Shown: one piece after another, positions 30,023-31,117 of the stretch
How positions within the stretch are numbered: position 1 is the stretch's first letter
Layout of the letters: each line of letters opens with the position of its first letter
From: Escherichia phage 121Q
DNA: 64,000 nt
Sequence record: NC_025447.1
Reading direction: 5' to 3' (one strand)
Position numbers and translations under genes: made by a program
The notes under the pieces: model-generated
Database searches by the model: none
What the model was told of the DNA's origin: nothing
The model's input: only the letters and a program-made list of their open reading frames with translations

Positions 30023-30190
30023 TGTGGTTTTTACAGTAAATATGTCTTGTAATAAAATAAAAATATGCTATACTACTTAAACATTTGAAAAGAACGTTTT
30101 TGTACTGTAGAAAGTCCGATGAGGCTTTTGCAAATGGCCTCTTTGCCATCTTTGTGATTGCCCATCTTAACAATCAACAAAGGAGGCGTT

Positions 30191-31117
30191 TTGAAACAAG
30201 CGAAAAAAGCACTGAAAACTAAGACTACTTATGGTGTTCTAGTTTGCACAGTACTTGTCGCTGCGATTGGATTTTATGGTTTTTCTCAAAATGATCGTGT
30301 ATCATCATCGGACGAAAGTCAGGTACACAATTTAAAACCACAAGTTACGCAAATTCAAAAGCAGGAATTACCAAAGGTAGAAATATCAAAGGATGTTCCA
30401 CGCGGCGAGAAGCATTATACGGTTCAACCTGGTGATAGTTATTATTCTATTGCTAAAAAGTTTAAACCTAAAAATGTACAACTTGAAGAGTATGTTATTT
30501 TGTTGAAAAATATCAATTTAAATGCTACTCTTCATACTTCTCAGGGTATCTTTATCCCAACAAAAGAGGATTTGAAGAACGTATTGTTACCAGATGTGAC
30601 TGTACTGTTTGATTATAATGATCCAGAAATTGTCAATCACATCAAAGAAGCTGAAGGTTCAATTGAATTTCAGTCCAAGAACAAACGCCGTTTACTTGGT
30701 GGGAAAGTCGGAGTTCCTTTCCACAATTCTAAATTTCATCCCTACAAGGACATGAAAGGTAATTATACAATAGGTTATGGGCATTATTTGGGTAGAAAAG
30801 AATCTGATGCGATTAAGTACAGAAACGGTATTACCAAAGCTCAAGCCAACAAACTTTTAATGCAAGATATGAAAAGAACATATGATGACTTTTTATTATT
30901 GATGCAGAAAAAAGAAGCAGTAAATCTGACCAAAGAACAACAACGTATTCTTTATGAAATGTCCTATACAATGGGTGTTGATAAATTAGCAACGTTTAAT
31001 AAACTTTGGAAAAGTGTGAAAAATGATAACCCTAAGAAATTTAAAAAAGAAATTATGAATTCCTTATGGTATCGTCAAGTTACAAACCGAGCAGATTTGT
31101 TGTTAAGTTCACTCTAA
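30191..31117 (+). CDS. membrane-anchored LysM / T4-lysozyme-like (GH24) protein; candidate signal-anchor-release endolysin
   Basis: Start placed at in-frame TTG 30191 after AGGAGG (track start 30158 is a TTG without RBS); N-terminal TM (TYGVLVCTVLVAAIGFYGF), LysM (YTVQPGDSYYSIAKKF), lysozyme core YKDMKGNYTIGYGH ... SLWYRQVTNRA. Confidence 0.65.
   Translation: MKQAKKALKTKTTYGVLVCTVLVAAIGFYGFSQNDRVSSSDESQVHNLKPQVTQIQKQELPKVEISKDVPRGEKHYTVQPGDSYYSIAKKFKPKNVQLEEYVILLKNINLNATLHTSQGIFIPTKEDLKNVLLPDVTVLFDYNDPEIVNHIKEAEGSIEFQSKNKRRLLGGKVGVPFHNSKFHPYKDMKGNYTIGYGHYLGRKESDAIKYRNGITKAQANKLLMQDMKRTYDDFLLLMQKKEAVNLTKEQQRILYEMSYTMGVDKLATFNKLWKSVKNDNPKKFKKEIMNSLWYRQVTNRADLLLSSL

What the first reader, a model, noticed from the sequence alone, without database searches (positions are those of the whole stretch)
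30158..31117. LysM/T4-lysozyme-like protein with N-terminal membrane anchor and atypical catalytic region
The protein has an N-terminal TM segment, a LysM motif and a T4-lysozyme-like core with the Asp and Thr of the catalytic triad in place. The canonical Glu nine residues upstream of the Asp is absent; the only candidate E-G lies about 27 residues earlier. It may be a SAR-type endolysin with an insertion, or a non-canonical or inactive muramidase. The start codon is also ambiguous (TTG 30158 without RBS versus TTG 30191 after AGGAGG).
Basis: partly seen in the sequence, partly recalled or inferred. Interest (0 to 1): 0.45.

Follow-up and report, generated by a model that had tools for sequence, protein, structure and literature searches.

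The report
Membrane-anchored LysM lysozyme of jumbo phage
This gene encodes the already described "predicted endolysin" of RaK2-like giant phages, an exported, membrane-anchored cell-wall-cutting enzyme whose odd-looking active site is a normal T4-lysozyme site with a conserved 23-residue loop inserted between two catalytic residues.

Summary
The ORF is real. The window comes from an Asteriusvirus jumbo coliphage, and the protein is 99.7% identical to the PBECO4 ortholog. The start is TTG 30191 (308 aa), not 30158.

The protein has a Lys-rich N-terminus, one hydrophobic helix, a roughly 40-aa disordered linker, a LysM-like domain and a GH24 (T4-lysozyme) domain.

The "missing" catalytic Glu is E155. 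It is invariant, ends the first helix of the modelled GH24 domain as E11 does in T4 lysozyme, and is set on E11 by a forced global profile alignment. D187 and T193 are also invariant.

E155 and D187 are 32 residues apart in all 69 orthologs, against 9 in T4 lysozyme. A shorter 13-aa insertion at the same site occurs in the phage's two other GH24 proteins. One of these (LysUE1) is lytic in vitro. An inactive enzyme is therefore unlikely.

The architecture and the SAR-endolysin idea were published in 2017 for CBB_187 and its homologs 121Q gp532 and RaK2 gp506. The protein was not found in virions.

Whether the helix is released (SAR), stays anchored, or is cleaved cannot be decided in silico. 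Its composition looks like an ordinary anchor.

A side observation: the gene and a ribosome-hibernation-factor gene appear to share one transcription unit behind a conserved leader.

The parts
30047..30074 (+). Sigma-70-like promoter candidate, TTGTAA-16-TGcTATACT (extended -10). An overlapping candidate is TTTACA-17-TAAAAT at 30030-30058.
   Evidence: Consensus scan. The ATGCTATA(C/A)TACT block is invariant among diverged Asteriusvirus leaders. Orthologs in other genera carry TTGACA-17-TAAAAT further upstream. Function is inferred, not shown.
30100..30190 (+). Conserved 5' leader. It contains the GTAGAAAGTCC box (30105-30117), hairpin P1 (GAGGC 30121-30125 paired with GCCTC 30137-30141), anti-SD stretch GCCATCTTTGT (30145-30155) and SD AAGGAGG (30178-30184).
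   Evidence: Block 30103-30160 is nearly invariant where its flanks vary. The AAGTCC box and the G.G.CTTT.TGC motif are invariant across genera. P1 arms differ in a compensating way between clades. The MFE fold of the 94-nt leader pairs the SD with the anti-SD stretch; the longer 128-nt fold instead pairs the SD and start codon with a non-conserved stretch at 30091-30101. Occlusion of the start region ranks 2nd of 60 genes but is not beyond shuffled controls. There is no Rfam match.
30191..31117 (+). CDS of 308 aa with a TTG start: signal-anchored LysM-GH24 muramidase. It is the ortholog of phAPEC6 gp293, PBECO4 gp040, RaK2 gp506 and CBB_187.
   Evidence: PMC5259590.
30230..30283 (+). Hydrophobic helix, residues 14-31. 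It is a type II signal anchor (N-terminus in, C-terminus out), or possibly a signal peptide.
   Evidence: Kyte-Doolittle mean is 1.86 here and 2.0-2.7 in most orthologs. The N-terminus has 5 Lys and no acidic residue.
30284..30406 (+). Polar disordered linker, residues 32-72.
   Evidence: AF2 pLDDT is below 50 for residues 1-72. This is the most variable part of the family alignment.
30413..30553 (+). LysM-like peptidoglycan-binding domain, residues 75-121, with a beta-alpha-alpha-beta fold.
   Evidence: Pfam LysM match at 22.4 bits, above the 20.9 cut-off, partial. AF2 elements are E75-77, H84-91, H98-108 and E119-121 at pLDDT about 90. BFVD LysM proteins match the model.
30623..31114 (+). 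GH24 / T4-lysozyme-type catalytic domain, residues 145-308.
30653..30655 (+). Codon of E155, the catalytic Glu (counterpart of T4L E11).
   Evidence: Invariant E-G in 24 of 24 aligned homologs. It closes helix 145-155 in the model. A forced global hhalign places it on T4L E11, with low per-column confidence.
30662..30730 (+). Clade-specific 23-residue insertion, residues 158-180 (IEFQSKNKRRLLGGKVGVPFHNS), between the catalytic Glu and the Asp.
   Evidence: E-to-D spacing is 32 in 69 of 69 homologs. Q161, R166, L168 and G171 are invariant. It is modelled as a short helix plus extra strands at block-mean pLDDT 83-93. Spacing classes among relatives are 9, 22 and 31-32.
30749..30751 (+). Codon of D187, counterpart of T4L D20.
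30767..30769 (+). Codon of T193, counterpart of T4L T26.
31134..31466 (+). Downstream gene, probably co-transcribed: HPF/RaiA-type ribosome hibernation factor, 110 aa.
   Evidence: Pfam Ribosomal_S30AE, E = 4.2e-9. The gap to the lysozyme stop codon is 16 nt. The same adjacency occurs in distant relatives.
31475..31501 (+). Stem-loop GGGACAGA-TTAAT-TCTGTCCC followed by TTTTCTT. It is the likely terminator of the lysozyme-HPF unit.
   Evidence: The hairpin was found by the scan, which reported it on the minus strand. The plus-strand U-tract was read directly from the sequence.

Best explanation
This is the Asteriusvirus ortholog of the published 'predicted endolysin' of RaK2-like jumbo phages (CBB_187, 121Q gp532, RaK2 gp506, phAPEC6 gp293).

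Proposed mechanism:
- The Lys-rich N-terminus and single hydrophobic helix send the protein through the Sec pathway with its N-terminus in the cytoplasm (inferred).
- A roughly 40-residue flexible linker, a LysM-like peptidoglycan-binding module and a GH24 muramidase then lie in the periplasm, without need of a holin (inferred).
- The catalytic domain is a complete T4-lysozyme-type machine. E155 is the general acid, and D187 and T193 position the water. The counterparts of T4L H31, D70, W138, Q141 and R145 are present (shown by alignment and model).
- A clade-specific 23-residue insertion enlarges the small beta-sheet lobe between Glu and Asp. It does not displace the Glu from the end of the first helix of the domain.
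- The enzyme cleaves the glycan strands of the host cell wall and most likely contributes to lysis (inferred).
- Its activity is probably held back until late by the membrane tether and by control of expression through the structured leader (inferred).
For: Identity and prior description:
- DNA is 98.7% identical to phage CRJP21, and the protein is 99.7% identical to PBECO4.
- RaK2 gp506 is the ortholog.
- Buttimer 2017 describes the TM + LysM-like + lysozyme architecture, names it the predicted endolysin, and reports growth inhibition on induction, data not shown (PMC5259590).

Fold:
- Pfam PF00959 and LysM both match.
- The AF2 model has pLDDT of about 90 for residues 73-308.

Catalytic residues:
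- E155, G156, D187, T193, H198, D226, W293, Q296 and R300 are invariant in 24 homologs of 44-80% identity.
- A global hhalign places E155 on E11 across a 23-aa gap.
- E-to-D spacing is 32 in 69 of 69 homologs.

Insertion compatible with activity:
- Among 148 representative relatives, the spacing is 9 in 70, 22 in 18, and 31-32 in about 10.
- The 22-spacing class includes phAPEC6 gp242, which begins MSKWEIK, the residues encoded by the published LysUE1 forward primer. LysUE1 is reported lytic in vitro.

Not a virion protein:
- phAPEC6 gp293 was not detected by mass spectrometry.
- CBB_187 is mentioned only in the cell-wall-enzyme section of the CBB paper, not in its structural-protein table.

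Topology: a positive N-terminus and a hydrophobic helix are present in all full-length homologs.
Against: - No experiment shows activity, export or a role in lysis for any member of this family.
- The phage also encodes a soluble 162-aa T4-e-like lysozyme (the gp242 / LysUE1 type). That protein could be the real endolysin.
- The gene sits among early or middle-type genes (HPF, CCA-adding enzyme, Nudix, glutaredoxin) behind sigma-70-like promoter candidates. This placement is unusual for a lysis gene.
- No holin, pinholin or spanin was recognised nearby.
- I had no model coordinates. The E155 to E11 equivalence rests on secondary structure, invariance and a forced global profile alignment with low per-column confidence.
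Confidence: 0.6

Rival explanations
1. It is an accessory periplasmic cell-wall remodeller, not the lysis enzyme. The soluble 162-aa paralog would be the endolysin. This tethered LysM-lysozyme, co-expressed with the ribosome hibernation factor, would loosen or reshape peptidoglycan during infection, for example to let the cell enlarge or to act locally at the membrane.
For: - All three GH24 paralogs are kept in the RaK2-like genomes listed, each showing 3 matching places per record. A phage needs only one endolysin and one tail lysozyme.
- The 162-aa paralog is lytic in vitro.
- The gene context is early or middle-like and the lysozyme-HPF pairing is conserved.
- CBB_187 induction gave growth inhibition, which is not described as lysis.
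Against: - An active exported muramidase made early would risk premature lysis.
- The 162-aa paralog lies inside the baseplate module, between the tail lysozyme and the gp25-like gene. It may therefore serve tail or baseplate biology instead.
- There are no expression-timing data.
Confidence: 0.25
2. The N-terminal segment is a true SAR domain. The protein would be exported and tethered in an inactive state, then released into the periplasm when a (pin)holin collapses the membrane potential, as with P1 Lyz or P21 R21.
For: - An N-terminal hydrophobic helix on a GH24 endolysin is the SAR hallmark. The CBB authors proposed this reading.
- The Asteriusvirus helix is the least hydrophobic in the family (Kyte-Doolittle 1.86) and contains three Gly, two Ala and three Thr within residues 13-31 (TYGVLVCTVLVAAIGFYGF).
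Against: - Most orthologs have Leu/Phe-rich helices (Kyte-Doolittle 2.0-2.7) with a Gly/Ala/Ser/Thr fraction of 0.26-0.47. From my own knowledge, classical SAR domains reach about 0.6.
- The helix is about 110 residues from the catalytic Glu, so an R21-type refolding switch is not possible.
- The only Cys is in the helix and is not conserved, so P1-type disulfide caging is not possible.
- No pinholin was identified.
Confidence: 0.2
3. The hydrophobic segment is a cleavable Sec signal peptide. The mature protein would then be a soluble periplasmic LysM-lysozyme.
For: - The family consensus ...LLLAAA|IGF... (VAA|IGF in the window) offers small residues at positions -3 and -1.
- That site follows a positively charged n-region and a hydrophobic stretch of about 10 residues.
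Against: - The hydrophobic run continues past the putative cleavage site (IGFYGF), giving about 18-19 residues in total. That length is typical of an anchor.
- There is no helix breaker or polar c-region.
- The CBB authors describe an N-terminal transmembrane domain in CBB_187, with TMHMM listed in their methods.
- No signal-peptide predictor was available here.
Confidence: 0.12
4. It is a catalytically dead or attenuated lysozyme-fold protein used for binding or localisation. The insertion would block the cleft. A comparable case is the GH24 domain of the bacterial morphogen SpmX.
For: - The 23-aa insertion sits on the lobe that forms one lip of the substrate cleft.
Against: - Every catalytic and structural hallmark residue is invariant across 44-80% identity. 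That pattern is expected only if catalysis is under selection.
- A paralog with a related insertion is active.
- Induction of the CBB ortholog is toxic.
Confidence: 0.05
5. It is a low-copy virion or ejection protein that digests the wall from within the periplasm during entry.
For: - PHROG and PDB matches include tail lysozymes and the internal virion lysozyme of phiKMV-type phages.
Against: - It was not detected in the phAPEC6 virion proteome, while the 96-kDa tail lysozyme gp241 was. It is also not mentioned among the CBB structural proteins.
- The gene lies outside the structural modules.
- A Sec-type signal anchor does not fit a packaged protein.
Confidence: 0.04

Closest known systems
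CBB_187 family of RaK2-like jumbo phages (GAP32 gp180, 121Q gp532, RaK2 gp506, phAPEC6 gp293; PHROG 15410)
   Same: It is the same protein family with the same three-part architecture (TM, weak LysM, lysozyme) and the same genomic neighbourhood. PHROG 15410 matches at E = 9.5e-173. RaK2 gp506 is the tblastn ortholog. The family is described in PMC5259590.
   Different: Nothing substantive differs. The published description does not mention the Glu-Asp insertion, the leader or the HPF linkage. No member has been characterised experimentally.
Phage T4 lysozyme (gp e), GH24
   Different: T4L is a soluble cytoplasmic protein of 164 aa that depends on a holin. Its Glu-Asp spacing is 9, against 32 here. 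It has no TM helix and no LysM domain.
The phage's own GH24 paralogs: the 162-aa lysozyme (phAPEC6 gp242 / LysUE1) and the C-terminal domain of the 888-aa tail lysozyme (gp241)
   Same: They belong to the same GH24 sub-clade. They share the motif EG[ST]xxYQ...N.KF..Y.D, an insertion at the same site after the catalytic Glu.
   Different: Their insertion is 13 aa (spacing 22) rather than 23 aa. One is soluble and the other is part of the virion baseplate hub. Neither has a signal anchor or a LysM domain.
SAR endolysins P1 Lyz and P21 R21
   Same: They are GH24 muramidases exported by an N-terminal hydrophobic segment without a holin.
   Different: In both, the SAR helix adjoins the catalytic domain and takes part in activation. 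In P1 Lyz this is disulfide isomerisation; in R21 the helix refolds into the domain. Their helices are rich in Gly and Ala. Here the helix is separated from the domain by a linker and a LysM module, the domain has no Cys, and the helix is more hydrophobic in most orthologs. The statements about P1 and R21 come from my own knowledge.
Phage Mu endolysin gp22 with its releasin (membrane-tethered endolysin that needs a partner for release)
   Same: The concept is shared: a signal-anchored endolysin that is not spontaneously released. This comes from my own knowledge and was not tested here.
   Different: There is no sequence relationship to a releasin in the neighbourhood. The architecture is different.
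Translational control of T4 gene e, where the RBS is sequestered in a hairpin in early transcripts (McPheeters et al. 1986, from my own knowledge)
   Same: A lysozyme gene lies downstream of early-type promoters, and its Shine-Dalgarno sequence can pair with an upstream complementary stretch.
   Different: No late promoter was found inside the hairpin. Occlusion is not statistically beyond shuffled controls in the Asteriusvirus leader.

Membership tests
GH24 / T4-type phage lysozyme (Pfam PF00959) | Sequence match above the curated Pfam threshold | tested here: met
   44.9 bits against a cut-off of 22.3, E = 1.7e-11. All 69 orthologs carry PF00959.
GH24 / T4-type phage lysozyme (Pfam PF00959) | Two-lobe T4-lysozyme fold | tested here: met
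GH24 / T4-type phage lysozyme (Pfam PF00959) | Catalytic Glu at the C-terminal end of the first helix (T4L E11) | tested here: met
   E155-G156 is invariant. The model helix 145-155 ends at E155. A global hhalign pairs EAEGS with IDEGL. Caveat: I made no residue-level 3D superposition.
GH24 / T4-type phage lysozyme (Pfam PF00959) | Asp and Thr of the triad (T4L D20, T26) in the motif YxD..G..TIGxGH | tested here: met
   YKDMKGNYTIGYGH aligns with YKDTEGYYTIGIGH. D187 and T193 are invariant.
GH24 / T4-type phage lysozyme (Pfam PF00959) | Canonical 9-residue Glu-Asp spacing (typical of the family, not strictly defining) | tested here: not met
   Spacing is 32 in 69 of 69 orthologs. Among 148 relatives the classes are 9, 22 and 31-32.
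SAR (signal-anchor-release) endolysins | N-terminal hydrophobic segment with N-in topology preceding a muralytic domain | tested here: met
   Kyte-Doolittle mean 1.86 over residues 14-32. The N-terminus has 5 Lys and no acidic residue.
SAR (signal-anchor-release) endolysins | Weakly hydrophobic helix rich in Gly, Ala, Ser and Thr | tested here: inconclusive
   The Gly/Ala/Ser/Thr fraction is 0.37 in the window protein and 0.26-0.47 across the family. The consensus LLVGFLLLAAAIGF is Leu/Phe-rich. No quantitative membrane-insertion predictor was available.
SAR (signal-anchor-release) endolysins | Spontaneous or depolarisation-triggered release from the membrane | not testable with these tools
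   This needs fractionation or energy-poison experiments.
SAR (signal-anchor-release) endolysins | Activation coupled to the helix (P1-type Cys caging or R21-type refolding next to the catalytic Glu) | tested here: not met
   The helix ends at residue 31 and the catalytic Glu is residue 155. The only Cys (C19) is not conserved, and the GH24 domain has none.
LysM peptidoglycan-binding domain (Pfam PF01476) | Sequence match above the curated threshold | tested here: met
   22.4 bits against a cut-off of 20.9, but only profile positions 1-17 of 43 are matched. Two orthologs carry a precomputed PF01476 hit.
LysM peptidoglycan-binding domain (Pfam PF01476) | Beta-alpha-alpha-beta fold | tested here: met
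   AF2 elements E75-77, H84-91, H98-108 and E119-121 at pLDDT of about 90. BFVD LysM proteins match this part of the model, best E = 1.3e-3.
LysM peptidoglycan-binding domain (Pfam PF01476) | Binding to GlcNAc-containing glycan | not testable with these tools
   This needs a binding assay.
CBB_187-type predicted endolysin of RaK2-like phages (PHROG 15410) | Full-length homology and conserved gene neighbourhood | tested here: met
   PHROG 15410 matches at E = 9.5e-173 over residues 13-319. The order lysozyme, HPF, CCA-adding enzyme, Nudix, glutaredoxin is conserved.

The most novel reading that the evidence does not exclude
The protein is not the lysis endolysin. It would be a third, regulated lysozyme that is tethered to the inner membrane and remodels peptidoglycan during infection. 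It would be made from a two-gene unit with a ribosome hibernation factor, under a previously undescribed cis-regulatory leader. That leader has an AAGUCC box, a covarying hairpin and an anti-Shine-Dalgarno stretch, and is conserved across several genera of RaK2-like jumbo phages.
Probability: 0.2. Interest if true: 0.55.

Novelty: already known. Interest (0 to 1): 0.22.

Why it matters
The finding matters little as a discovery. The gene, its architecture and the SAR-endolysin hypothesis have been in the literature since 2017, and nearly identical sequences are in GenBank.

What this analysis adds:
- The start codon is settled at TTG 30191.
- The apparent loss of the catalytic Glu is an alignment artefact, caused by a strictly conserved 23-residue insertion.
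- That insertion defines a GH24 sub-clade with discrete spacing classes of 9, 22 and 31-32.
- The phage keeps three GH24 paralogs, so which one is the true endolysin remains open.

If the enzyme is active, it is one of the few Gram-negative phage lysins that carry their own cell-wall-binding module and export signal. That is of some interest for enzybiotic engineering. The conserved leader and the linkage to a hibernation factor are cheap to test experimentally.

Tried and rejected
- Sequence-only alignment to T4L (phmmer and a family profile against PDB) starts after the insertion. It could not place the Glu, so I used a global hhalign, the AF2 secondary structure and conservation instead.
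- The other GH24 copies are not in this window (tblastn). I found them in phAPEC6 instead.
- No solved structure carrying the insertion turned up. PDB hits to a 162-aa spacing-22 representative (P0087) also begin after the insertion.
- Neighbouring genes showed no holin, spanin or releasin. Pfam and PHROG gave only 'unknown function', a 2H-phosphoesterase-like hit and HPF.
- The T4-type late promoter TATAAATA is not upstream of this gene. Only 2 copies occur in the window.
- The motif TGTAGAAAGTCC is not a repeated promoter element in the window. There is one exact copy, and near matches occur at chance level.
- Rfam has no family for the leader and none anywhere in the window. There are no tRNAs.
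- I looked for statistical support that the leader sequesters the SD. The gene ranks 2nd of 60 for occlusion, but shuffling the upstream part gives similar occlusion for the Asteriusvirus leaders. I therefore do not claim it.
- The SD partner in the first MFE fold (30091-30101) is not conserved, so I dropped it.
- The RNAalifold consensus across genera was limited by poor alignment of the variable region.
- I found no transcriptome data for these phages.
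Full report
**Where the window comes from.** The 4-kb stretch around the finding is 92-99% identical to about 30 Escherichia and Salmonella jumbo phages of the genus Asteriusvirus. These include CRJP21 (98.7%), phAPEC6, PBECO4 and 121Q-type phages. The encoded protein is 99.7% identical to the PBECO4 ortholog. More distant orthologs, at 49-55% identity, occur in Eneladusvirus (fHe-Yen9-03, pEa_SNUABM_12) and Alcyoneusvirus (RaK2).

**Checking the observation.**
- A hydrophobic stretch YGVLVCTVLVAAIGFYGFS has a Kyte-Doolittle mean of 1.86. 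It follows an N-terminus with five Lys and no acidic residue.
- Pfam finds a partial LysM match at 22.4 bits against a cut-off of 20.9. It finds Phage_lysozyme at E = 1.7e-11.
- The motif YKDMKGNYTIGYGH aligns with T4L YKDTEGYYTIGIGH, which gives the Asp and the Thr.
- Nine residues before the Asp there is a His, not a Glu.
- The E-G dipeptide lies 32 residues before the Asp.

**The start codon.** The start is TTG 30191.
- It lies 6 nt after AAGGAGG.
- GenBank and RefSeq annotate 927-nt CDSs in PBECO4, phAPEC6, UE-S1, A4, Turkey5 and EC.P1.
- Most of the 69 homologs are 300-311 aa and begin at the equivalent Met.
- In the Eneladusvirus-type orthologs an in-frame TAA sits 12 nt upstream of the equivalent TTG (sequences).
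- Residue numbers below use this 308-aa protein.

**The catalytic region.** An alignment of 24 homologs at 44-80% identity shows these residues to be invariant: E155, G156, D187, T193, H198, D226, W293, Q296 and R300.
- By the PDB alignments, they correspond to T4L D20, T26, H31, D70, W138, Q141 and R145.
- From my own knowledge, H31-D70 and E11-R145 are the T4L salt bridges.

Several lines place E155 at the position of T4L E11.
- The AF2 model built from this alignment has pLDDT of about 90 for residues 73-308. A helix 145-155 ends exactly at E155-G156, as T4L helix A ends at E11-G12.
- Foldseek aligns 173 columns to the 162-residue T4L, with a target-normalised TM-score of 0.67.
- A global profile alignment with hhalign sets EAEGS on IDEGL and opens one 23-residue gap.
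- I had no model coordinates, so this equivalence is well supported but not proven by 3D superposition.

The insertion is under tight constraint.
- The Glu-Asp spacing is 32 in all 69 homologs.
- Q161, R166, L168 and G171 inside the insertion are invariant.
- It is modelled as a short helix plus extra strands on the small beta-sheet lobe.

**The insertion is a clade feature, not a defect.** A library-wide HMMER search with the catalytic domain returned 1332 relatives. Among the best 148 representatives, the Glu-Asp spacing falls into discrete classes.
- Spacing 9 occurs in 70 proteins.
- Spacing 22 occurs in 18, with the motif EG[ST]xxYQxxxGxYRNGKFxxYKD.
- Spacing 31-32 occurs in about 10. These have the same TM-LysM-GH24 layout.

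The spacing-22 class contains the phage's own two other GH24 proteins.
- One is the C-terminal domain of the 888-aa baseplate-hub lysozyme, phAPEC6 gp241. It was found in virions by mass spectrometry.
- The other is the 162-aa gp242. Its N-terminus MSKWEIK matches the residues encoded by the published LysUE1 forward primer. LysUE1 was cloned, purified and reported lytic in turbidity assays (PMC12805682).

An insertion at this site is therefore compatible with activity. Combined with the invariant catalytic residues, this makes the 'inactive muramidase' reading unlikely. No solved structure carries the insertion. LUZ19 gp36, the best PDB sequence match, has the canonical spacing of 9.

**The rest of the protein.**
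- Residues 1-72 are modelled as disordered. They comprise the helix and a polar, variable linker.
- Residues 75-121 form a beta-alpha-alpha-beta unit. This unit matches LysM proteins in BFVD.

**Prior knowledge.** Buttimer et al. 2017 (PMC5259590) describe CBB_187 as the predicted endolysin of phage CBB. They name homologs GAP32 gp180, 121Q gp532 and RaK2 gp506.
- They report an N-terminal TM domain, a weak LysM-like domain and a C-terminal lysozyme domain.
- They note the parallel with SAR endolysins.
- RaK2 gp506 is the ortholog found here, and 121Q is an Asteriusvirus.

No member of the family has been characterised experimentally. phAPEC6 gp293, the ortholog, was not detected in virions. 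CBB_187 is not mentioned among the CBB structural proteins.

**SAR, anchor or signal peptide.** This question stays open.
- Across the family the helix is mostly Leu/Phe-rich, with consensus LLVGFLLLAAAIGF and Kyte-Doolittle means of 2.0-2.7. Its Gly/Ala/Ser/Thr fraction is 0.26-0.47.
- The Asteriusvirus version is the weakest, at 1.86.
- The helix lies about 110 residues from the catalytic Glu, and the catalytic domain has no Cys. The P1 Lyz and R21 activation designs therefore do not apply.
- An AAA|IGF (here VAA|IGF) site leaves a cleavable signal peptide possible.
- These alternatives need experiments to separate them.

**Function.** The best reading is an active, Sec-exported, LysM-targeted GH24 muramidase that contributes to lysis. 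What keeps this uncertain:
- All three GH24 paralogs are retained in the RaK2-like genomes listed.
- The gene lies among early or middle-type genes.
- No lysis partner is recognisable nearby.

I put the enzymology at about 0.85 and the endolysin role at about 0.5.

**Transcription unit and leader (side result).** The gene is followed after 16 nt by an HPF/RaiA homolog. A stem-loop with a U-tract follows at 31475-31501. The lysozyme-HPF adjacency recurs in five further loci: two Eneladusvirus genomes and three metagenomic contigs carrying relatives about 41-43% identical in the catalytic domain.

Upstream there are sigma-70-like promoter candidates and a leader of about 115 nt.
- A block GTACTGTAGAAAGTCC...GAGGCTTTTGCAAATGGCCTC...GCCATCTTTGT is nearly invariant among Asteriusvirus variants whose flanks differ.
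- AAGTCC and G.G.CTTT.TGC are invariant across genera.
- The hairpin arms change in a compensating way between clades. They are GAGGC/GCCUC in Asteriusvirus, GCGAC/GUCGC in two Eneladusvirus-type contigs (L017, L018), GUGGC/GCCAC in RaK2 and GUGGC/GCUAC in L055. L021 and L023 have an A·C mismatch.
- In most single-sequence folds a second hairpin pairs the Shine-Dalgarno region with a clade-specific complementary stretch.

The evidence for SD sequestration is mixed.
- The start region of this gene is the second most occluded of 60 in the window.
- Shuffling the upstream sequence gives similar occlusion for the Asteriusvirus leaders. It gives clearly less occlusion only for some Eneladusvirus-type leaders.
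- Part of the conserved block could instead be a promoter of the second class reported for CBB, with TGAAACG at -35 and a TATA -10.

I therefore report a conserved leader with one covarying hairpin. Translational control, reminiscent of T4 gene e, is a hypothesis only. Rfam has no matching family.

**Verdict.** The unusual catalytic region is a conserved insertion in an otherwise complete T4-lysozyme active site. The protein belongs to a family already described as the predicted endolysin of RaK2-like jumbo phages. Interest is low to modest.

Noticed in passing
window 30100-30190; also L003:2343-2467, L010:1359-1452, L055:5915-6003, and the leaders in L012-L027: A conserved 5' leader precedes the lysozyme gene. 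It has an invariant AAGTCC box, a hairpin whose arms covary between phage genera, and a stretch complementary to the Shine-Dalgarno sequence. There is no Rfam match. It could be a cis-regulatory RNA, or partly a phage-specific promoter.
   Followed up: partly
window 31134-31466: A phage-encoded HPF/RaiA-type ribosome hibernation factor (Pfam Ribosomal_S30AE, E = 4.2e-9) lies directly downstream of the lysozyme gene. The pairing recurs in two Eneladusvirus genomes and in three metagenomic contigs carrying distant relatives. This suggests a shared transcription unit.
   Followed up: partly
window 29612-30022: The upstream 136-aa ORF has two H-x-[TS]-x motifs (HVSIVRGE and HITVGR). It gives a sub-threshold match to the 2H phosphoesterase 'Swiss Army Knife' domain (PF22547, 26.0 bits against a cut-off of 27).
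   Followed up: no
window 7909-7916 and the whole window: The T4-type late-promoter octamer TATAAATA is strongly depleted, with 2 copies against about 10.8 expected. One copy lies 35 nt upstream of the 898-aa ORF at 7951. This fits its use as a late promoter in these phages, as proposed for CBB.
   Followed up: no
window 50012-50326: An ORF-poor 315-nt stretch carries two near-consensus sigma-70 promoters with an extended -10 (TTGACA-N-TGTGATACAAT and TTGACA-N-TGTGATATAAT). They are not followed by an obvious gene. No tRNA or Rfam family matches.
   Followed up: no
window 23438-24127: A 690-nt stretch has no ORF of 100 aa or more and contains an imperfect direct repeat, ACAAGAAAG(TT/AT)(G)CGTCCAAAATTTGAGAA. 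No tRNA or Rfam family matches, and its nature is unknown.
   Followed up: no
window 38851 (start of the 887-aa tail sheath gene): This gene has the most occluded translation start region of the 60 gene starts tested, with a mean unpaired probability of 0.13 against a median of 0.51. The lysozyme gene ranks second.
   Followed up: no
window 29266-29397, 27772-27996 and 31929-32114: Three small ORFs (43, 74 and 61 aa), each with a single hydrophobic helix, flank the lysozyme gene. All belong to PHROGs of unknown function. None could be assigned as a holin, spanin or releasin.
   Followed up: partly
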